Part shown: piece after piece, positions 46,876 to 56,089 of the stretch
How the letters are laid out: each line of letters begins with the position of its first letter
Numbering within the stretch: the first letter of the stretch is position 1
Translations under genes and position numbers: made by a program
The notes under the pieces: model-generated
The model's input: only the letters and a program-made list of their open reading frames with translations
Told to the model about the DNA's origin: nothing
The model's database searches: none
Origin: Halorarum halobium
GTDB lineage: Archaea > Halobacteriota > Halobacteria > Halobacteriales > Haloferacaceae
Direction of reading: 5' to 3'
Assembly: GCF_032116555.1 (NCBI RefSeq)
Contig: NZ_CP134949.1
Span: 434,001 to 498,000 of the forward strand
DNA length: 64,000 nucleotides

Positions 46876-49800
46876 GATTCAGACGAACCCTTGTGGGGTT
46901 GAAGCACTCCGAGAGGTCGCGGATCTTCGCCTGGTGGCTGAAGATTCAGACGAACCCTTGTGGGGTTGAAGCGGACGGTCCGGAAGGAGAACCGTGGCGT
47001 GACGATCGATTCAGACGAACCCTTGTGGGGTTGAAGCGGACCATTGCACACGTCCCGTCGCACCACACGGGTAGATTCAGACGAACCCTTGTGGGGTTGA
47101 AGCCTGCGAGTGGTGCGGGTCGGCCTTCACCTGCTGTGATTCAGACGAACCCTTGTGGGGTTGAAGCGTCTGCTGGCCGGGGCCGGCGCGCTCGACGAGC
47201 GGCCGATTCAGACGAACCCTTGTGGGGTTGAAGCCTCCGGGCGTTCGACGCGGTGGGACTTGTGGACGTGATTCAGACGAACCCTTGTGGGGTTGAAGCA
47301 CGTTTGCGTTCGAGACGGTCGAGAACATCCCCGCGATTCAGACGAACCCTTGTGGGGTTGAAGCTCCGGGCCGGGCGAAACGCGCGGCTGGAAAATCACA
47401 GGATTCAGACGAACCCTTGTGGGGTTGAAGCTTGCGTTCGGTCATAGTGCCGTCTCCAATTCCGCGTGATTCAGACGAACCCTTGTGGGGTTGAAGCACA
47501 GTCCGGACACACGATGTCAACGGATTTGGGGTCGGATTCAGACGAACCCTTGTGGGGTTGAAGCTTCGACACGCGCCCCGAGGCAGACGACGCGTTTGGA
47601 TTCAGACGAACCCTTGTGGGGTTGAAGCGGGCGAGGGCGGCGTCCTCAACCTGCGGCCGTTCGGAGATTCAGACGAACCCTTGTGGGGTTGAAGCCACGT
47701 CTGCGTTAGTGCCGTCACCATATCCGAAGTGGATTCAGACGAACCCTTGTGGGGTTGAAGCCGGTAGTGCTCATGGGTTACCACCCCTCTCCATCCGATT
47801 CAGACGAACCCTTGTGGGGTTGAAGCCAGTGAGGCGCGTAGTCGCCGCCGTCGAAGTCGGGGGATTCAGACGAACCCTTGTGGGGTTGAAGCGTTGTCCG
47901 ACACGGTGAGCGTCCCCGGGAACTTGCGGATTCAGACGAACCCTTGTGGGGTTGAAGCTACTTCGCGCGCGGAATGGCGCGATACGCCTACAACGATTCA
48001 GACGAACCCTTGTGGGGTTGAAGCGTCCACGGGGTCGGCCTCCTCGGTGGCGGGTGCCTCGATTCAGACGAACCCTTGTGGGGTTGAAGCTCGTACCGCT
48101 TCCGGAGGTCCTCGGACTGCCCGAGGGATTCAGACGAACCCTTGTGGGGTTGAAGCTTTCTGTAGCCAGTCGCGGCCGTGCCGGGCGAACCGCGATTCAG
48201 ACGAACCCTTGTGGGGTTGAAGCCGCTTCTCCTCGGTTGTGTTAGCACTCGGCGCTCTGAGATTCAGACGAACCCTTGTGGGGTTGAAGCGCCTGCCGCA
48301 GCGCCCGGCGGACGTCGTCGATGGTGATTCAGACGAACCCTTGTGGGGTTGAAGCCCCCACCGTCCGGGCCGCCGGGGTAGTTCTCCGGCGGATTCAGAC
48401 GAACCCTTGTGGGGTTGAAGCACCCGATGGGATTCCGAGCCTGGGACGACGTCCCCGGGATTCAGACGAACCCTTGTGGGGTTGAAGCTCGTGGACGCCC
48501 TGGGGGGCGTCCTCCCAGATGAACGGATTCAGACGAACCCTTGTGGGGTTGAAGCTCCTCTGCATCGGGAGTGGTGTCCTCCGCGTCGTCGGCGGTCTGC
48601 GATTCAGACGAACCCTTGTGGGGTTGAAGCGTGATACGATACGCCCTTTTATGCAACAGGAGCGGATTCAGACGAACCCTTGTGGGGTTGAAGCTCGCTC
48701 CGGTGCCGGTCGTAGCACAGCGAGCTGCGATTCAGACGAACCCTTGTGGGGTTGAAGCGTCTCGTCGGGGTCCGTCTCGTCCGTCTCGTCGGGCGATTCA
48801 GACGAACCCTTGTGGGGTTGAAGCCTCCGCGAATACTGCATGGTCTACACGCAGGTCGAGGATTCAGACGAACCCTTGTGGGGTTGAAGCACGTCCATGT
48901 CACGCTCGTCTACGGGTTCCTCGTTGGGGATTCAGACGAACCCTTGTGGGGTTGAAGCACGTTCTGCAGCCCTCCGTGAGAGCCGTCGATGAACGGATTC
49001 AGACGAACCCTTGTGGGGTTGAAGCCTCGAGGTACTGCCCGCGGTGCTCCTCGCACGTCACGGATTCAGACGAACCCTTGTGGGGTTGAAGCCGCTCGTC
49101 GGAGACCGTGCAGCCCCCGCAGTTGTGGATTCAGACGAACCCTTGTGGGGTTGAAGCCACTGTCCCGTGGAACTCGGGTCGCCCGCGTTGACCGATTCAG
49201 ACGAACCCTTGTGGGGTTGAAGCGACCCATGAGCATCGTCGAGGCTCAGACCGACGGGGATTCAGACGAACCCTTGTGGGGTTGAAGCGGAGGTCGGCGA
49301 CCTCGGACCGGAGGGCGTCGAGTTGATTCAGACGAACCCTTGTGGGGTTGAAGCGATCACACGACGACAGGGTAGGCAAAGGTCGGTTTGATTCAGACGA
49401 ACCCTTGTGGGGTTGAAGCCTGTACCGGGTCGAAGCGGTCGAGGTCGAGACGGAAGATTCAGACGAACCCTTGTGGGGTTGAAGCCCAGTAGGCCCACCC
49501 CGTGTCAACCATATCATCCACGGGATTCAGACGAACCCTTGTGGGGTTGAAGCGTCGCGCGGCGCGTCGAGGCGGTCCCCGGCTACGCGATTCAGACGAA
49601 CCCTTGTGGGGTTGAAGCTTGGAAGGCGTCGTTGAGCCGGCGCGTGTCCCAGTCCGATTCAGACGAACCCTTGTGGGGTTGAAGCCGCGAACGACTCCGC
49701 GAGATTGGCTCGCTCGCCAACGATTCAGACGAACCCTTGTGGGGTTGAAGCGCGTCCAGGCCGGTCGCGGTGTCCAGGTACACGATGGATTCAGACGAAC

Positions 49801-52800
49801 CCTTGTGGGGTTGAAGCCGTTCGGGTGCAGCGCGTCTTCGGCGTCCATCGTCGATTCAGACGAACCCTTGTGGGGTTGAAGCGGCCTCTACATTGAACGT
49901 CACGTCGACGGGCCCAGCTGATTCAGACGAACCCTTGTGGGGTTGAAGCAACTGCCAGTGCCATCAGCAGCTCGTGCTCGAGGAGATTCAGACGAACCCT
50001 TGTGGGGTTGAAGCGCGAGATAGCGAATCACCTTGTACGTCGTATCTCGGATTCAGACGAACCCTTGTGGGGTTGAAGCCTTGGAAGAACGACTGCCTGC
50101 GTGTCGTAGACCTGGATTCAGACGAACCCTTGTGGGGTTGAAGCGTTTGGGGGAGCATCTGTCGAACCAACCGTGTCCGTGGATTCAGACGAACCCTTGT
50201 GGGGTTGAAGCCCGCGGAAGTATCGGAGCCACAAGCACGAGTGGGCGATTCAGACGAACCCTTGTGGGGTTGAAGCACCCGCCGGCTCAGCCCCGTCTGG
50301 CTGGTCTGGAACGGATTCAGACGAACCCTTGTGGGGTTGAAGCGAGGAGACGGTCGGCCTCGAGGGGGTGCTCTCGTCGGGATTCAGACGAACCCTTGTG
50401 GGGTTGAAGCGACCGGGAAAACAGCGCGAAGCCACTCCAGGACCCGGATTCAGACGAACCCTTGTGGGGTTGAAGCGGACGAGATGGTCAACTGGTATCT
50501 TGCCGAGGGGCGGATTCAGACGAACCCTTGTGGGGTTGAAGCCGAGATATGATCGGACTCTTCGAGGTCCTCCGTCGTGATTCAGACGAACCCTTGTGGG
50601 GTTGAAGCTCCTCCCCCGTGTGGCAGAACATGCACTCCCCCTCCGATTCAGACGAACCCTTGTGGGGTTGAAGCGGTCCGATTCGGAGACGCCAGTACCC
50701 ACGGCGGTATCGATTCAGACGAACCCTTGTGGGGTTGAAGCTTGTGCAACGTCTCCCGCGTGGTCGCTTCCGGGTTGTGATTCAGACGAACCCTTGTGGG
50801 GTTGAAGCAACTCGAAGAACGTCACGAGTATGCCGGGCCGAAGGTGATTCAGACGAACCCTTGTGGGGTTGAAGCGCTGAGCCTTCCCCCTCGAAGACTT
50901 CGTCCGCGAGGATTCAGACGAACCCTTGTGGGGTTGAAGCTGCTTGGTCGGTCGTGTTCACCGTGTCTTCTTGGTCGGATTCAGACGAACCCTTGTGGGG
51001 TTGAAGCTCGCAGAGATCTCCGTCGGCGGTCTCACTCACCGTGATTCAGACGAACCCTTGTGGGGTTGAAGCCCCGTGAAATCGCCGTACGTGACGTTCT
51101 CTACGTAGATTCAGACGAACCCTTGTGGGGTTGAAGCGCCTGGAACCAGGGCGCTCCGACGGTGTCCAGTCTAAGATTCAGACGAACCCTTGTGGGGTTG
51201 AAGCCCCGCTACCCCGGACTCGTTGTCCTTGGTCGTGATGAGATTCAGACGAACCCTTGTGGGGTTGAAGCGATGGTCGTGATACCCCCGCGCTCGTCGC
51301 TGGACGCAGATTCAGACGAACCCTTGTGGGGTTGAAGCCTGGTTGATGGACACGTCGTCCAACTGCCCGAACGATTCAGACGAACCCTTGTGGGGTTGAA
51401 GCACGTGCTGCGAAACGTCGATGAACCCCGCTCGCCGGGATTCAGACGAACCCTTGTGGGGTTGAAGCGGACGAGGCTCGTTCGCGGTCGGGTGCGACTG
51501 CAAGGATTCAGACGAACCCTTGTGGGGTTGAAGCCGTCTCCCGGCGGTGGTGACGGCGGACTCGTCGGTAGATTCAGACGAACCCTTGTGGGGTTGAAGC
51601 GGCGGGTACGTCTGTCCCTCTTGCGACTTCGACGATCGATTCAGACGAACCCTTGTGGGGTTGAAGCGACAACATCGAGCCGGCGCCGCCCCGGGACCGC
51701 TCCGGATTCAGACGAACCCTTGTGGGGTTGAAGCTCGCAGTCGGACGCGCAGTACCTCCACGACGTGGTCGGATTCAGACGAACCCTTGTGGGGTTGAAG
51801 CGACAAGGAGAAGTGGCGATTTGAGGAGACAGACGGTCGATTCAGACGAACCCTTGTGGGGTTGAAGCTTCACAATCGGGTTTGTTCTTGGGTTACTGGT
51901 GCTGGATTCAGACGAACCCTTGTGGGGTTGAAGCATATTTACTGTCACATACGACGAGTCCATCGATAACAGATTCAGACGAACCCTTGTGGGGTTGAAG
52001 CCCCGTCCAGACGCGGGCGGACGACGGGCCTGATAGCCGATTCAGACGAACCCTTGTGGGGTTGAAGCCCGGTCCGGACGGCTACATCACGGTCGAAGTG
52101 TCGGATTCAGACGAACCCTTGTGGGGTTGAAGCACTCGTCCCCACGTCGCCGTCGCCGCTCGGGGACGATTCAGACGAACCCTTGTGGGGTTGAAGCAGC
52201 GGACGAGTGGCCGGGGGACGTGCGCGCCGATTAGATTCAGACGAACCCTTGTGGGGTTGAAGCATCCGCGAGGCCGTCGCCGTCCCAGTCGAGGCCGTCC
52301 GATTCAGACGAACCCTTGTGGGGTTGAAGCCACGTGTGGAATCTGTCGGTGAGGACCTTGGACGATGGATTCAGACGAACCCTTGTGGGGTTGAAGCATC
52401 CGCGAGGTCGTCGCCGTCCCAGTCGAGGCCGTCGATTCAGACGAACCCTTGTGGGGTTGAAGCCGTTACGGCCCGGAGTTCGACTCCGCCGCCGCCCGCT
52501 GATTCAGACGAACCCTTGTGGGGTTGAAGCAACTCCGGGAGTGAGACGTTGGAGCACCTTACCGCGGATTCAGACGAACCCTTGTGGGGTTGAAGCGTCT
52601 GAAGCGAACTCGTCGGCTGCCGGATCGTAGGTGATTCAGACGAACCCTTGTGGGGTTGAAGCTCGACAAAGTTCCACGCGAACGTGTTGAAAGAGCCGAT
52701 TCAGACGAACCCTTGTGGGGTTGAAGCACCAACAATCACGCCAGCGACGACGCTCTCGTGTGGATTCAGACGAACCCTTGTGGGGTTGAAGCGCGTCACC

Positions 52801-53057
52801 GAGGACCAGCCGCGAGCGTGGGAGTATCTGATTCAGACGAACCCTTGTGGGGTTGAAGCGAGAACATGGAACTCGACCAGACCACCGACACCGAGATTCA
52901 GACGAACCCTTGTGGGGTTGAAGCTCCGGCGGGACGCCCGTGTCGACGTCGTCGTCGCGTTGATTCAGACGAACCCTTGTGGGGTTGAAGCACGGTCAAC
53001 AACATCCGCGACGCGATCGCCGAGCGCGATTCAGACGTACCCTCGTGGGATTGAAGC
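46876..53057 (+). CRISPR. Type I-B array, repeat GATTCAGACGAACCCTTGTGGGGTTGAAGC (30 bp), about 94 repeats / 93 spacers
   Basis: Manual count. Spacers are mostly 34-38 bp (one is 45 bp). Terminal repeat 53028-53057 has 3 substitutions. Confidence 0.98.
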
Positions 53058-53090
53058 CTAGGCCGGGAAAGAACGCCGGGACTCTCGTCC
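53055..53090 (-). other. Degenerate tRNA-Thr 3'-half copy (att-like)
   Basis: AGCCTAGGCCGGGAAAGAACGCCGGGACTCTCGTCC versus tRNA AGCCTGAGGCGGGATTTGAACCCGCGCTCTCGTCC; similarity stops at the anticodon loop. Confidence 0.75.
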
Positions 53091-53154
53091 GCTGGGCGTT
53101 TCACGCCCTGTGTACCCGGACGACCCGTTTACGCAGGCTGTACCCAGACAGCCT

Positions 53155-53606
53155 ATGAGCCTGAAACCGACGCCGCCGCACGAAGCCAAGAACCGATTTC
53201 TCAACGACAAGAAGCCGGGCGTCACTCGGAAAACACTCAAGAACTACCGGACGTGCCTGCGCCACTTCTGCGACTGGCTGGACGACCAGCAACTCACGAA
53301 CCTGAACGACCTCGACAGCGAACTCATCCAACGGTACAAGGAGTTCCGGCTGTCCAAGGTCAAGGTCATCACGGCGCGGCAGGATATAATGACTATCAAG
53401 CAGTTCATCGAGTTCTGCGAGCACATCACGGCTGTCCCGCGAGGGATGTGCGATTAGGTTCGGATACCCCCCAGGCCAACGAGGACGACGAAATATGCGA
53501 CGACCTCCTCACGAGGGCCGACGCAGCCGCCGTGTTGGCCCTCTTCGGCAAGTACGAGTGCGCCAGGAATCAGCACGTCTCGCTGCTCGTCCTCTGGAAG
53601 ACCGGG
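53155..53606 (+). pseudogene. Truncated XerC/D-like phage integrase (N-terminal SAM-like domain)
   Basis: TLKNYRTCLRHFCDWL...LNDL...YKEFRL, an in-frame TAG at 53455, a frameshift, then KYECARNQHVSLLVLWKTG, ending where the catalytic Arg would follow. Confidence 0.78.
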
Positions 53607-54087
53607 AAGAAGGCCAGACACGGAGGTCACGAGCCCAGGATTCGTGCTGCCCTGTCTCTGGATCCCTGCAACCCTCCAGGTCGCCGCATCCACAGCAGTT
53701 TCAGATCGAGACACTCGGATTGCGGCGATCTATCCGGTGTAGTGGAAGATGAGCGACGTCCTGAGTGAGAAGAGGTGTGCTCCCAGATTTGGGAGTCGAG
53801 GCCGATAGATTGCCTGTTCCCGAGTGGAGAGGAAGGTGGTTTGAGCAGGAGTCTAACTCAGATATCAGCCCAATATGGGCTGACGTGCTGACTACCGGAA
53901 GGCTCAAGCGTTTCATTATCGGATTCGGGCCCCGGAAGGAGCGCACCTGTGGAATTCTCCATTCCCGTTCAGGGTGAGTTCGCTCGGGGCTGAGCAATCT
54001 GATCCAGATGATGAGACGAGGAGGTTCAGAACCGTCGAATTTGGAGAGATAAGGGTTTCCAACGACTCGCTCCAATTTCGGCTAAGC

Positions 54088-54338
54088 GCCAGACGGGAAC
54101 CGATTATGAAGAATTTCGGGCCTGGGTTTGGCCTCGACGACGGCTTCTGCGGCGGCGTCTCCGGCATCGATGGGGCTTCTTGGTTCAGTATTCGGCCAAT
54201 TTGGGGGTTAGCCGACGGCCAGTCTACTTCGGTTTTTGCGCACAGTGATAGGTATCTACCGGAGATTTGGGCCGATTATGATGGCACTACAGACCTGAAG
54301 CGGAGGGTTGAGATTTTCATAATCGGTTCCAGTCTGGC
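54088..54338. repeat. 251-bp segment bounded by 23-bp inverted repeats (22/23 match), MITE-like
   Basis: GCCAGACGGGAACCGATTATGAA (54088-54110) and TTCATAATCGGTTCCAGTCTGGC (54316-54338). Confidence 0.7.
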
Positions 54339-54572
54339 ATTTTGGTGTTCAATAATCTGACCCACTGTTTCGTTTCCAGCCCGTTGTCAGTAATTGAGAT
54401 TCCATTCTGCACCGTGGGCGCCAAGCTCCGGCGAAGAACCAGAACAAACCAAGTGCCCAATGAGCGTTCGCCGGGGTAAGACACGTCGTAAAACGGGTGT
54501 CCTTGTCTCCAAAAATCGGTAACCGATGTGAGCAAGAAGGGCTCTATCTGCCAGTTACGGTACGCACCGCAG

Positions 54573-54760
54573 GTGTAAGCCTAGGCCGGGATATCAGATG
54601 CCTCCCCAACGACGCTCACCCTGACGGGTTCGCACATTTGGGATTTGGCTTGTCCGTGAACTCAGCCTCAAACCCGTCAGGGTGGGCGGTAAACCCGCCG
54701 CTCAGCGTCACCGTTCCAGACTTCAGGGCAAGCTGACTGTTGCCCGTCCGCCGAGACGAC
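54573..54760 (-). ncRNA. Predicted TnpB omega/reRNA (scaffold overlapping tnpB 3' end, plus guide from 54592 downward)
   Basis: Hairpins GGGCAAC...GCTTGCCC and GCCAAATCCCAA...TTGGGGAGGC ending ATCTGAT; position typical of IS200/IS605 right ends. Boundaries are approximate. Confidence 0.65.
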
Positions 54761-55881
54761 TGTTGGCCCCGACGGACGTACCGCATTCCGATGTTCTTCG
54801 CCGCGTTGTAGTCGGCGTTCGCCTCCGACTCGCACTTCACACACTGGAAGTCGTTTCGAGTCGGGCGATTCTCATCCGCTGTGAACCCACACTCGGCGCA
54901 CCGCTTCGACGTGTACGCGGAACCCACCTGCTCCACCGAGACACCGACTGCTTCGGCTTTGTACTCCACTTGCTCGTAGAGCGTTCGGAACGCCCACTTG
55001 TGTCCCCACGACGCGCCTGTGCGGTCGCGGATGTGGGTCAAGTTCTCGAACACAATCACGTCGCACTCGTAACGTAGGGCTTCTGTGATAATGGCGTTCG
55101 ACGCGCGGTGAAGTACGTCTCGGACGTATCGTAATTCCCGACCACTCGACTGTTCAAGCGTCCGGTGAGAGCTTCGCGTTCCAGTCTGCTGCAGGCCAGC
55201 GCGTACCTTCTCGAACTCTCGAAGGTTGTGGTTTAACTCTCGCCCACTGAAGAAGTAGGCGGTACTGGTGACAGCGAGGCTTTCGATACCCAAGTCGACG
55301 CCGAGAACCGTTCCGTTCTCAGTCGTCTCCGCAGTCTCGGCCTTAAGTTTACGAAATCCGAGATGGAGGAACCATCCACCGTCACGATAGTGGAGGGACG
55401 ACTCCGTCGTCTCCCACTTCTCGGAGTCGATGTACTGGTTTTGATGTCCCTCCTCCCCCTCCGGGAGTTCAAGGTCGGCCTGCACTCGTGAGTGGTCCCC
55501 GAGGGTCGTGAGCGATACCTGCTCGCGTTCGGGGAAGAGCGTCATCGTCCGGGTATCGTAGGTGACTGTCGGGCTTGTGTACGTTGGTCTGGACGCTTTC
55601 CGCCCCATCTGGTGCCGTGAGATACACGACTGGATGTTCTCAGCTGCCTGATGACATGCGAGGACGGCGTGTTGGCTCCCTAACGATGCCCGCTCGCGGA
55701 CGTCGTCGTAGGCGAGTTTCTGGACCTCGAACGGAGAACGACACTGCCTCCATGCGCGGTCGACAGCGACCTGGCAACCGCGTTTCCACGCCGAGACTGT
55801 GTCTCGAAGGAGCGTCTCGTCTTCCGGGGAAACGGTGAGACGCGTAATCGATGTCCGGCGGTGGTACTCAGCGTCCGACAC
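54616..55881 (-). CDS. tnpB: RNA-guided endonuclease TnpB (IS200/IS605 family, IS1341-type, no tnpA)
   Basis: RuvC-I GVDLG, RuvC-II VFENL, Zn finger CAECG...CVKC and RuvC-III ADYNAAKNI; D-E-D triad intact. Confidence 0.95.
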   Translation of the reverse strand: MSDAEYHRRTSITRLTVSPEDETLLRDTVSAWKRGCQVAVDRAWRQCRSPFEVQKLAYDDVRERASLGSQHAVLACHQAAENIQSCISRHQMGRKASRPTYTSPTVTYDTRTMTLFPEREQVSLTTLGDHSRVQADLELPEGEEGHQNQYIDSEKWETTESSLHYRDGGWFLHLGFRKLKAETAETTENGTVLGVDLGIESLAVTSTAYFFSGRELNHNLREFEKVRAGLQQTGTRSSHRTLEQSSGRELRYVRDVLHRASNAIITEALRYECDVIVFENLTHIRDRTGASWGHKWAFRTLYEQVEYKAEAVGVSVEQVGSAYTSKRCAECGFTADENRPTRNDFQCVKCESEANADYNAAKNIGMRYVRRGQQSSRRTGNSQLALKSGTVTLSGGFTAHPDGFEAEFTDKPNPKCANPSG

Positions 55882-56017
55882 GGTGTTTTCTTCCTCGTGA
55901 TCAGTGATAAGGGTCCGGAGGGAATAACCTCGTCCAGAGCTCTCACTGCGTCAGTCAGATGTACAATACAGATAGAGCTGCAGCTGGGTTTCCCGAATAG
56001 GTTGAAGAGTGGAGAAG

Positions 56018-56089
56018 AGCCTGAGGCGGGATTTGAACCCGCGCTCTCGTCCTTACCAAGGACGCGCTTTACCGCTAAGCTACCCAGGC
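56018..56089 (-). tRNA. tRNA-Thr(GGU)
   Basis: GCCTGGG...CGTCC-TTGGTAA-GGACG...GCGGGTTCAAATCCCGC-CTCAGGC-T cloverleaf. Confidence 0.95.

What the first reader, a model, noticed from the sequence alone, without database searches (positions are those of the whole stretch)
54573..56089. Stand-alone TnpB whose predicted guide is a tRNA-Thr 3' end, beside a recoded tRNA-Thr: candidate tRNA-att homing/exclusion system
Seen: on the minus strand the order is tRNA-Thr, a 136-bp spacer, tnpB with intact catalytic motifs, a right-end hairpin ending ...GGCATCTGAT, then ATCCCGGCCTAGGCT (54592-54578). That 15-mer is a tRNA 3' end (T-loop AT, T-stem CCCGG, acceptor CCTAGGC, discriminator T), and its acceptor strand pairs with this tRNA's 5' strand GCCTGGG. 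The resident tRNA instead reads TTCAA-ATCCCGCCTCAGGCT, differing at guide positions 7, 9 and 10, with pairing kept (T-stem GCGGG/CCCGC). A TTCAA also sits at 56006-56002, near where the element's left end could be, matching the bases 5' of the target in a tRNA T-loop. Established: TnpB guides derive from the DNA just beyond the IS200/IS605 right end, and targets need a 5' TAM. Inference: this TnpB would cut the ancestral tRNA-Thr allele, or incoming attP sites of tRNA-Thr-integrating elements, while the host allele is immune. That would act as a homing drive or att-site guard rather than ordinary transposon retention.
Basis: partly seen in the sequence, partly recalled or inferred. Interest (0 to 1): 0.92.

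Follow-up and report, generated by a model that had tools for sequence, protein, structure and literature searches.

The report
TnpB cassette that replaces tRNA genes
A small RNA-guided nuclease gene sits inside a salt-loving archaeon's threonine tRNA locus, aimed at the normal version of that tRNA gene while carrying a resistant working copy, and related cassettes seem to spread between species this way.

Summary
On the minus strand lie tRNA-Thr(GGU) (56089-56018), a 136-nt spacer, an intact tnpB (55881-54616), a right end at 54593 and then ATCCCGGCCTAGGCT(T).

Both same-genus genomes lack tnpB here. Their intact tRNA-Thr ends TTCAA|ATCCCGGCCTAGGCT. Against them, this genome has a 1,440-bp insertion exactly 3' of the T-loop TTCAA, the family's inferred TAM. 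The insertion begins with a different, still pairing tRNA tail and ends with the TnpB right end.

The predicted guide is therefore the native tRNA tail. The resident tRNA differs from it at guide positions 7, 9 and 10.

The pattern recurs. Of 66 distinct relatives, 16 lie just downstream of a tRNA (Thr, Gly, Met, Glu, Ser), and each has a guide made of a variant tail of that tRNA. None of 48 unlinked elements has a tRNA-like guide.

In another genus, four species share such a cassette at 98.5-99.1% identity. Their upstream flank is about 87% identical. Congeners keep the exact empty, guide-matching site.

My best reading (confidence 0.6) is a natural RNA-guided homing, or cleave-and-rescue, cassette. 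Cleavage, TAM and immunity are untested. The att-site-guard idea has little support. I found no prior description.

The parts
56018..56089 (-). Resident tRNA-Thr(GGU), allele B (T-stem GCGGG/CCCGC, acceptor GCCTGGG/CTCAGGC). It is the only tRNA-Thr(GGU) in the genome. Its last 15 nt (56032-56018) are the first bases of the insertion relative to congeners.
   Evidence: ARAGORN and Rfam tRNA at 71.6 bits. It is 100% identical to alleles of another genus (g7) and of G040, while the same-genus genomes carry allele A.
56033..56037 (-). T-loop TTCAA of the resident tRNA. This is the point after which the 1,440-bp insertion starts (TAM-like site).
   Evidence: Comparison with the intact tRNA of G054 and G019. 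Relatives carry TTCAAC directly 5' of the left end in 15 of 18 cases.
55882..56017 (-). Spacer between the tRNA and tnpB. It holds an 11-nt trailer and TTCAAC (56006-56001). The roughly 85-nt left-end hairpin of canonical relatives is absent.
   Evidence: Left-end alignment. The DNA fold is no better than shuffles, z +1.22. No relative matches this stretch by DNA.
54616..55881 (-). tnpB, 421 aa, open frame. RuvC-type D196 / E279 / D357 and zinc-finger cysteines C328, C331, C347 and C350 are present. The protein is a mosaic: aa 1-210 come from one lineage and aa 211-421 from the canonical crown lineage.
   Evidence: Pfam PF07282 at 1e-19 and PF01385 at 1e-8. Alignment to PDB 8j3r keeps GxDxG, the E of ..ExL.., NADxNAA and the CxxC pairs.
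54593..54777 (-). omegaRNA scaffold region, overlapping the 3' end of tnpB and ending at the right end (...CATCTGAT, 54593).
   Evidence: A 24-sequence alignment gives 41 consensus pairs, 19 of them with compensatory changes. The window RNA fold has z -2.61.
54577..54592 (-). Predicted guide, which is the remnant of the native tRNA-Thr allele A: the last 15 nt of the tRNA (standard positions 59-73) plus one trailer T.
   Evidence: 15 of 15 identical to the tail of the intact tRNA of G019 and G054, preceded there by TTCAA. Window 54592-54555 is 84% identical to the G019 tRNA tail plus trailer.
53110..53457 (+). Fragment of a tyrosine-integrase gene (N-terminal SAM-like domain only), inside a 1.5-kb decayed integrative element bounded by the two 15-nt repeats.
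   Evidence: Pfam PF02899 at 1.4e-6, 28.9 bits against a cut-off of 22.3. ORF list.
53054..53068 (-). Second exact copy of TCCCGGCCTAGGCTT (the far att repeat of the integrase element). It has no TTCAA in front (GTTCT instead).
   Evidence: family D13. There are only two copies of the core in the whole genome.

Best explanation
This is an IS1341-type tnpB-omegaRNA element that has become a tRNA-gene homing cassette, working by cleave-and-rescue.

Against the empty site kept by its congeners, 1,440 bp are inserted exactly after the T-loop TTCAA of tRNA-Thr(GGU). The insert starts with a spare tRNA tail of another natural allele. That tail, together with a matching change on the other T-stem strand, keeps the tRNA complete. 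The insert ends with the omegaRNA scaffold. The displaced native tail (ATCCCGGCCTAGGCT) becomes the guide.

TnpB-omegaRNA should then cut TTCAA plus the native tail, that is, ordinary tRNA-Thr(GGU) genes. Such targets would be other chromosome copies or DNA received from relatives. It should spare its own tRNA, which has three mismatches at guide positions 7, 9 and 10.

Repair from a cassette-bearing copy uses the tRNA body and upstream DNA as the left arm, and the remnant plus trailer as the right arm. This copies the resistant tRNA and the cassette into the cut locus.

Shown here:
- the anatomy and the empty site;
- the recurrence on other tRNAs;
- a conserved omegaRNA fold and intact catalytic motifs;
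- horizontal spread of a related cassette.

Inferred:
- the TAM, the cleavage and the immunity of the resident allele;
- the repair route;
- how the first such cassette arose. It may have arisen by an aberrant excision that used the T-loop TTCAA as the left cleavage site and so picked up the tRNA tail and trailer.
For: - Right end at 54593, from alignment with 19 relatives.
- TTCAAC lies 5' of the left end in 15 of 18 relatives.
- The syntenic loci of G019 and G054 have no tnpB and an intact tRNA ending TTCAA|ATCCCGGCCTAGGCT. In G019 both flanks align: 84.5% upstream and 84.2% over 38 nt downstream.
- Catalytic D/E/D and the zinc finger are kept.
- The omegaRNA region has 41 consensus pairs, 19 of them compensatory.
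- There is no self-target: of 2,390 TTCAA sites, the best has 4 of 16 mismatches.
- The genome has no TnpA and only this one TnpB, and the element has no left-end hairpin. Ordinary transposition therefore cannot explain why it is kept.
- Recurrence: 16 of 66 distinct relatives sit within 400 nt downstream of a same-strand tRNA. Their guides match a tail of that tRNA type at 13-14 of 14 positions, against 5-9 of 14 for 48 unlinked elements.
- Every resident tRNA differs from its guide in the TAM (TTCGA) or at 2 or more seed positions.
- In genus g18, a 1,499-bp unit is 98.5-99.1% identical in four species. The upstream 1.5 kb is 86.8-87.9% identical. The boundaries are sharp at the tRNA start and the remnant end.
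- Filled against empty site (L151 against L178): 91% identity on both flanks, with the insertion exactly between TTCAA and the tail.
- The guide equals the native allele of 4 of 30 congener loci that lack tnpB.
Against: - No experiment supports the model. The TAM, guide length, cleavage and mismatch tolerance are inferred from the family.
- The window's own cassette is a singleton. Its closest full-length relative in the tree set is 78% identical, so the spread signature comes from a related cassette, not this one.
- The resistant allele also occurs without tnpB in other genera and in 3 of 30 g18 loci.
- tRNA-linked TnpBs are not one clade (at least 3 origins; quick tree). The window's gene is a mosaic. 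Repeated accidents followed by escape could give a similar picture.
- In L015 and L100 the guide equals the resident tail (12-15 of 15) and only the T-loop reads TTCGA. If TTCGA is a permitted TAM, those copies would cut themselves or must be inactive.
- By recalled knowledge of ISDra2 TnpB, the cut falls 15-21 bp from the TAM, to the right of the 15-nt remnant. Right-side repair therefore needs homologous trailers. Three of the four g18 cassette loci have unalignable trailers.
Confidence: 0.6

Rival explanations
1. Escape relic. An ordinary TnpA-driven insertion hit a T-loop TTCAA, either in the tRNA itself in a polyploid cell or in a partial tRNA duplicate. TnpB then attacked the intact tRNA in cis. 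Survivors were cells whose tRNA had mutated or been replaced by a resistant allele. Today the element is a stranded, functionless leftover.
For: - The association arose several times (at least 3 origins forced).
- One Halolamina copy still has a canonical TTTCAAC plus left end 72 nt behind the tRNA.
- Partial tRNA-Gly duplicates that include the T-loop exist without tnpB in G043 and G153.
- Several linked copies are decaying: L017 has a truncated ORF and L015 a degenerate left end.
- The genome has no TnpA.
Against: - It does not explain a cassette at 98.5-99.1% identity in four species whose upstream flank is about 87% identical.
- In the window and in L151 the empty site is the intact tRNA itself, not a duplicate.
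- tnpB, its catalytic residues and the omegaRNA fold are intact here.
- The guides stay close to natural tRNA tails across TnpBs only 54-66% identical to the window's.
Confidence: 0.22
2. att-site guard. The guide is kept to destroy incoming viruses or plasmids whose attP carries the tRNA-Thr tail. The recoded resident tRNA also removes the chromosomal attB.
For: - A decayed integrase element lies directly beside the remnant, bounded by the same 15-nt core.
- One viral contig (L149) carries GGGGTCAAATCCCGGCCTAGGCTT without a tRNA, which looks like an attP.
- The locus abuts a 94-repeat CRISPR array.
Against: - 0 viral contigs hold the exact TTCAA plus guide.
- The single attP-like hit has GTCAA, not TTCAA.
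- The remnant still offers the att core, and an integrase element sits on it.
- The far repeat has no TAM.
- Guarding does not explain the cassette's spread between species.
Confidence: 0.1
3. One-off chance insertion into an old att scar of an integrase element, with no link between the tRNA and tnpB.
For: A second copy of the 15-nt core and an integrase fragment are present. Most relatives (50 of 66) have unrelated flanks.
Against: - The remnant starts exactly at the right end and exactly after the T-loop TTCAA position.
- Congeners have an intact tRNA there.
- The same geometry recurs at five tRNA species.
- A tRNA-like guide is never seen without an adjacent tRNA (0 of 48).
- A Campbell-type integration would leave a remnant that reaches further into the tRNA than the changed T-stem base. 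It does not.
Confidence: 0.03

Closest known systems
TnpB-omegaRNA of IS200/IS605 elements (ISDra2 type) and TnpB-mediated transposon homing. Karvelis 2021 and Nety 2023 were seen only in the reference list of PMC12558985. Meers 2023 is recalled and was not seen.
   Same: - The protein family, the RuvC and zinc-finger motifs, and an omegaRNA that overlaps the gene's 3' end.
- The guide is the DNA just past the right end, and the TAM is the motif 5' of the left end.
- The nuclease re-cuts the site that lacks the element, and repair restores the element.
   Different: - The target is an intact essential host gene (a tRNA), not a neutral donor joint.
- The element brings a resistant functional copy of that gene.
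- It has no left-end hairpin, no TnpA in the genome and a single copy, so it cannot be moving by transposition.
Free-standing homing endonucleases and 'intronless homing' or marker exclusion, such as phage T4 SegB at the tRNA gene region. Passages and a reference title were seen in PMC13565253. The term and the details are recalled.
   Same: A nuclease gene lies beside a resistant variant of its own target. It cuts the sensitive allele in related genomes. It is inherited together with the neighbouring resistant markers, seen here as co-conversion of the T-stem.
   Different: Recognition is by a guide RNA taken from the displaced target itself, not by protein. The host is an archaeal chromosome, not a phage.
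Synthetic cleave-and-rescue (ClvR / toxin-antidote) gene drives. This is recalled. The library search for TnpB with this term gave one review that holds both terms; I did not open it.
   Same: An RNA-guided nuclease aimed at an essential gene is tightly linked to a recoded, cleavage-resistant rescue copy.
   Different: This one is natural and prokaryotic. The rescue copy replaces the target in place, so the same cassette can also home.
Integrase-borne integrative elements at tRNA 3' ends, such as Haloquadratum walsbyi GI3 with tRNA-His plus a 43-nt repeat (passages of PMC3119063).
   Same: The insertion restores the tRNA with element-borne sequence and leaves a displaced tRNA tail downstream. 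Such an element lies next door, at 53054-54592.
   Different: - There is no integrase in the tnpB segment.
- The two tails differ at 3 of 15 positions.
- The remnant starts precisely at the IS right end and TAM position.
IStrons, which are IS200/IS605 or IS607 elements fused to a group I intron (abstract of PMC4227781 in the listing).
   Same: A TnpB-type element has a built-in way to make insertion into a gene harmless.
   Different: Harm is avoided here by supplying a replacement gene end at the DNA level, not by RNA splicing.

Membership tests
IS200/IS605 superfamily, IS1341 group (tnpB-only OMEGA element) | TnpB protein with a RuvC-like D-E-D triad and a zinc finger | tested here: met
   Pfam PF07282 and PF01385 score above their cut-offs. 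D196, E279, D357 and four cysteines align with identical residues of PDB 8j3r. Which residues are catalytic is recalled family knowledge.
IS200/IS605 superfamily, IS1341 group (tnpB-only OMEGA element) | Structured omegaRNA overlapping the 3' end of tnpB and ending at the right end, followed by a variable guide | tested here: met
   41 consensus pairs, 19 of them with compensatory changes, in 24 sequences. Flanks diverge right after ...TGAC/T in 19 of 19 relatives. No RNA data were available.
IS200/IS605 superfamily, IS1341 group (tnpB-only OMEGA element) | Left end with a subterminal hairpin directly 3' of the TAM | tested here: not met
   TTCAAC is present at 56006-56001, but the roughly 85-nt hairpin of relatives is absent and the spacer folds no better than shuffles.
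IS200/IS605 superfamily, IS1341 group (tnpB-only OMEGA element) | Mobility by a Y1 transposase (TnpA) in cis or trans, and more than one copy | tested here: not met
   No PF01797 match in a 99.9%-complete genome. The element is single-copy by DNA and by protein.
Homing-endonuclease-like allele drive (intronless homing / cleave-and-rescue) | Nuclease linked to a variant of its target that should resist cutting | tested here: inconclusive
   The resident tail has 3 mismatches at guide positions 7, 9 and 10 behind the same TTCAA. That these mismatches block cleavage is inferred from seed behaviour of TnpB and Cas12, which is recalled.
Homing-endonuclease-like allele drive (intronless homing / cleave-and-rescue) | The sensitive allele exists at the same locus in relatives that lack the nuclease | tested here: met
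   G019 and G054 have an intact tRNA with TTCAA and a 15 of 15 match, and no tnpB. The same holds in g18.
Homing-endonuclease-like allele drive (intronless homing / cleave-and-rescue) | Horizontal spread into the cognate site with co-conversion of nearby markers | tested here: inconclusive
   Met for the related g18 cassette: 98.5-99.1% against about 87%, with the T-stem 5' strand changed along with it. For the window's own cassette no second copy exists to compare.
Homing-endonuclease-like allele drive (intronless homing / cleave-and-rescue) | Site-specific cleavage of the sensitive allele | not testable with these tools
   Needs biochemical or genetic assays.
Tyrosine-integrase integrative element at a tRNA gene | An integrase gene and identical att repeats bounding the element | tested here: not met
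   Not met for the tnpB segment: it has no integrase, and the two tails differ at 3 of 15 positions. It is met by the neighbouring 1.5-kb remnant (53054-54592), which has exact 15-nt repeats and an integrase fragment.
Nuclease-dead TnpB-like regulators (TldR type; recalled) | Loss of RuvC catalytic residues | tested here: not met
   The D/E/D positions are intact.

The most novel reading that the evidence does not exclude
Haloarchaea harbour natural RNA-guided cleave-and-rescue drives on essential tRNA genes. TnpB cassettes are guided by the displaced native tRNA tail and carry a resistant tRNA. They convert or exclude ordinary alleles during the frequent DNA exchange between polyploid cells. 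This conflict, together with integrases that use the same tails, helps explain one pattern. In 70 tRNA-Thr(GGU) copies forming 10 alleles, all variation lies in the variable loop, the T-arm and the acceptor 3' strand. It always preserves pairing. That set was chosen by similarity and by a fixed 18-nt 5' motif.
Probability: 0.35. Interest if true: 0.9.

Novelty: new variant of a known kind. Interest (0 to 1): 0.82.

Why it matters
TnpB is known as a helper that keeps a transposon at its own site. Here it appears re-aimed at a host gene that every cell needs, with a built-in resistant replacement. This would be the first natural counterpart of engineered cleave-and-rescue or homing drives, and it would be in archaea.

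If this holds, four things follow:
- It would show how an RNA-guided nuclease leaves the transposon life style, a step towards CRISPR-like or other host roles.
- It would give a selfish-element explanation for paired-base polymorphism in tRNA stems.
- It would add a new factor to gene flow and species barriers in haloarchaea.
- It would supply natural TnpB/guide/TAM sets with predicted targets that are easy to test.

Tried and rejected
- RNA evidence: the look-up of sequencing runs listed no RNA holder, and every holder had a share of 0.10 or less.
- Viral targets: the exact TTCAA plus guide is in 0 viral contigs. A shorter pattern is in 1, which has GTCAA.
- Campbell-type (integrase) integration of the tnpB segment: rejected. 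The resident tRNA carries the incoming allele on both T-stem strands, from the first T-stem pair onward. The downstream copy would then have to include that region, yet it starts 10 nt later, exactly at the right end.
- Tandem-tRNA origin (insertion into the second of two tandem genes): rejected for the window, where only 16 nt separate the tRNA from the second TTCAA. The spacer in L014 shows no convincing likeness to a tRNA 5' part by eye. Tandem tRNA-Thr matches do occur in G139.
- Simple insertion of a unit carrying only the tRNA tail: this fits tRNA-Thr only with an extra change on the other T-stem strand (1 nt here, 3 nt in g18). It fails for Halolamina tRNA-Gly, where the 5' acceptor strand and about 45 nt upstream also differ. 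At least some events therefore replaced the whole tRNA by recombination.
- Left-end hairpin in the window spacer: none found.
- A likeness between the window's 11-nt trailer plus TTCAAC and native trailers of allele-B genomes was seen by eye only and is too weak to use.
- The tree is the quick version; the careful search did not finish. It is also confounded by the mosaic shown, so I make no claim about the number of origins beyond 'more than one'.
- Earlier notes of this scan: nothing for this genome. By words, other TnpB-tRNA cases came up, but none has this geometry.
- Literature: five searches and passages of three papers gave no description of a TnpB guide derived from a tRNA allele. Subscription journals and supplements were not searched.
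Full report
**1. What is in the window**

The minus strand reads as follows:
- a DUF7114 gene (56837-56172; Pfam 1e-85);
- tRNA-Thr(GGU) (56089-56018; ARAGORN, Rfam 71.6 bits);
- a 136-nt spacer that holds TTCAAC at 56006-56001;
- a 421-aa tnpB ORF (55881-54616; PF07282 1e-19, PF01385 1e-8);
- 23 nt ending ...GGAGGCATCTGAT at 54593;
- ATCCCGGCCTAGGCTT (54592-54577).

The host is a 68% G+C haloarchaeal chromosome. The gene is 72 nt long. 'Positions 59-73' below means standard tRNA numbering for its last 15 nt.

**2. The element and its ends**

Nineteen related elements from other genomes of the family (L002-L020, 76-87% DNA identity over the 3' part) stay alignable with the window up to ...GGGGTAGTTGAC/T. 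This aligns with the window's ...GGAGGCATCTGAT. In all 19 the sequence turns unrelated immediately afterwards.

At the other end, 15 of 18 relatives carry TTCAAC directly before a conserved hairpin-rich left end of about 85 nt. The other three read CTCAAG, GTCAAC or a degenerate site. By the established rule for IS200/IS605 elements, the target-adjacent motif lies 5' of the left end. The family's TAM is therefore TTCAA(C). This is an inference; no experiment supports it.

The window has TTCAAC in the right place but lacks the hairpin. Its spacer folds no better than shuffles (z +1.22).

The last 185 nt or so before the right end form a conserved structure. In a 24-sequence alignment there are 41 consensus pairs, 19 of them with compensatory changes. 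The window's RNA fold has z -2.61.

TnpB keeps D196, E279 and D357, and the cysteine pairs C328/C331 and C347/C350. These align with identical residues of a solved Cas12f/TnpB-type chain (8j3r). Which residues are catalytic is recalled family knowledge.

The gene is a mosaic. Residues 1-210 are closest (66-83%) to the clade of L022, L024 and L067. Residues 211-421 are closest (86-97%) to the canonical crown group, for example L011.

The genome (99.9% complete) has no Y1 transposase (PF01797). It has exactly one TnpB.

**3. The empty site**

Both same-genus genomes hold the syntenic locus: G019 at 84.5% identity and G054 at 83.1% identity over about 1.5 kb upstream. Neither has tnpB there, and elsewhere they give only weak DNA matches to the element.

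Their intact tRNA-Thr(GGU) ends ...CCGGGTTCAA|ATCCCGGCCTAGGCT. In G019 the tail plus trailer aligns with window 54592-54555 at 84%.

Against these, the window has 1,440 extra bases (56032-54593) placed exactly after the T-loop TTCAA. It also has one change (C to G) at the first T-stem pair, which matches the incoming tail.

The inserted DNA begins with a tRNA tail of another natural allele (CCCGC/CTCAGGC). The whole resident tRNA is 100% identical to alleles of another genus (g7: G155, G161, G006, G105) and of G040, all of which lack tnpB there.

The native tail survives as the 15 nt after the right end. That is where a TnpB guide is taken from.

No other site in the genome comes close to TTCAA plus guide. 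Of 2,390 TTCAA sites, the best has 4 of 16 mismatches. The resident tRNA is among these, with 3 mismatches in the first 12.

**4. The neighbours**

A second exact TCCCGGCCTAGGCTT lies at 53068-53054, and these are the only two copies in the genome. Between the two copies lie 1.5 kb with an integrase N-terminal fragment (53110-53457; PF02899 1.4e-6).

This is a decayed integrase-type element that used the native tRNA tail as its att core. Its far repeat is preceded by GTTCT, not TTCAA. It abuts the degenerate last repeat of a 94-repeat CRISPR array.

**5. Recurrence**

I screened 65 full-length relatives. Three pairs were the same element fetched twice.
- Twelve have a same-strand tRNA within 400 nt upstream, and 53 have none.
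- With L022 and L041-L043 added, 16 of 66 distinct proteins are tRNA-linked. The tRNAs are Thr(GGU) in ten, Gly(CCC) in three, and Met, Glu and Ser(GGA) in one each.
- In every linked case the bases after the right end are the last 15 nt of that tRNA type, starting exactly after the T-loop TTCRA.

As a control, I compared guides with 72 distinct tRNA tails. The guides of 9 linked elements match one at 13-14 of 14 positions. Those of 48 unlinked elements reach only 5-9 of 14. A tRNA-like guide is thus never seen without a tRNA directly upstream.

Each resident tRNA differs from its guide. The difference is either at 2-7 guide positions or, where the tail is the same, in the T-loop (TTCGA instead of TTCAA in L015 and L100, and additionally in L022).

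In Halolamina the resident tRNA-Gly differs from the remnant allele in both acceptor strands and in about 45 nt upstream. Congeners carry either haplotype without tnpB.

**6. Spread between species**

In genus g18, four species (G108, G138, G191, G215) carry a tRNA-Thr cassette whose TnpB is 54% identical to the window's.
- The 1,499 bp from the tRNA start to the remnant end are 98.5-99.1% identical between three of them. The 1.5 kb upstream is 86.8-87.9% identical. The 73 nt downstream cannot be aligned.
- In a four-way alignment, variable columns per 50 drop from 5-32 upstream to 0-3 inside the unit. They jump to 39-40 after the remnant.
- Of 30 g18 tRNA-Thr loci examined, 3 hold the cassette, 3 hold the same resistant allele without tnpB, and 4 hold an allele whose TTCAA plus tail equals the cassette's guide, 15 of 15.
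- G215 (filled) against G185 (empty) aligns at 91% on both sides. The insertion sits exactly between TTCAA and ATCTCGG... and the T-stem 5' strand has changed with it.

This is the signature expected of homing with co-conversion. It is evidence for the class, not for the window's own copy, which has no near-identical partner.

**7. How it most likely works**

Shown: the geometry, the empty sites, the recurrence, an intact nuclease gene and RNA fold, the absence of transposition machinery, and horizontal spread of a related cassette.

Inferred:
- TnpB-omegaRNA recognises TTCAA followed by the native tail and cuts ordinary tRNA-Thr(GGU) genes.
- Three seed mismatches protect the resident gene.
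- The break is repaired from a cassette-bearing copy, through the tRNA body and upstream DNA on the left and through the remnant and trailer on the right.
- The resistant tRNA keeps the cell alive.

Haloarchaeal polyploidy and inter-species recombination would give such a cassette its opportunities. Both are recalled knowledge.

The origin is open. One aberrant TnpA excision from a site just downstream of a tRNA, using the T-loop TTCAA as left cleavage site, would create a unit that begins with a tRNA tail. That is what the window and L151 look like.

A weak point is the cut position, recalled from ISDra2 as 15-21 bp from the TAM. It falls at the outer edge of the remnant, so right-side repair needs homologous trailers. 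These are present in the G215/G185 pair but not visible among three of the four g18 loci. Integrases that still use the remnant as attB may have replaced them.

**8. Rivals**

- An escape relic (0.22) explains the repeated origins and the decaying copies, but not the 99% against 87% contrast.
- An att-site guard (0.10) has only one attP-like viral hit, with GTCAA, in its favour.
- A chance insertion into an att scar (0.03) is contradicted by the empty sites and by the control.

**9. What is known**

The parts belong to the IS1341-type TnpB-omegaRNA family. The left-end and mobility criteria are not met (see the membership table).

The behaviour resembles three things:
- TnpB-assisted transposon homing;
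- free-standing homing endonucleases with resistant neighbouring targets, such as T4 SegB at tRNA genes (passages of PMC13565253);
- synthetic cleave-and-rescue drives (recalled).

Haloarchaeal omegaRNAs are expressed in Halobacterium (abstract and passages of PMC12558985). The great diversity of tnpB-only elements in haloarchaea has been noted before (passages of PMC3119063).

Five library searches and this scan's own notes gave no description of a TnpB whose guide is an allele of the adjacent tRNA. Subscription journals and supplements were not covered.

**10. Verdict**

The guard arm is not. I rate it a new variant of a known kind, with interest 0.82.

Noticed in passing
window 46876-53057 (+): A long CRISPR array: 94 repeats match the 25-nt repeat core with up to 3 substitutions, and Rfam calls them CRISPR-DR24. 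Its last, degenerate repeat (53028-53057) overlaps the far att repeat of the integrase remnant by 4 nt, so the array ends exactly at an old tRNA-Thr attachment site.
   Followed up: partly
window 54088-54110 and 54316-54338: A 23-nt inverted repeat, 96% complementary, encloses 205 nt inside the decayed integrase element. It may be a miniature inverted-repeat element.
   Followed up: no
whole genome G000: The genome has no Y1 (IS200-type) transposase and only a single TnpB/TNB-domain match. From passages of PMC3119063 and from recall, haloarchaea often carry dozens of tnpB genes.
   Followed up: partly
L139 (G153) and L140 (G043), about 95 nt downstream of tRNA-Gly(CCC): An intact tRNA-Gly is followed by a filler of about 95 nt and a 22-nt repeat of the tRNA end that includes the T-loop (GGTTCAATTCCCGGACGGCGCA). 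There is no tnpB. This may be the footprint of a small integrated element and a possible substrate for T-loop insertions.
   Followed up: no
L149 (IMG/VR contig, 33 kb), positions 151-168: A viral contig carries GGGGTCAAATCCCGGCCTAGGCTT with no tRNA gene around it. It looks like an attP for tRNA-Thr(GGU) allele A, with GTCAA where the tRNA has TTCAA.
   Followed up: partly
window 54616-55881 (tnpB): The TnpB is a recombinant of two lineages, with a breakpoint near residue 210. Such gene conversion between TnpB elements blurs trees of this family.
   Followed up: yes
G161 (three places) and G139:C19:104736-104907: One genome of genus g7 has three matches to the window-type tRNA-Thr allele (two over 1-73, one over 1-72, all 100% identical). 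Another genome has two tRNA-Thr(GGU) matches in tandem, 28 nt apart.
   Followed up: no
70 tRNA-Thr(GGU) copies in the fetched loci: All 10 alleles are identical at gene nt 1-45. They vary only in the variable loop, the T-arm and two acceptor 3'-strand positions. The 5' acceptor strand stays fixed, and the 3' strand toggles between two G-U wobble arrangements. The set was selected by similarity and by a fixed 18-nt 5' motif.
   Followed up: partly
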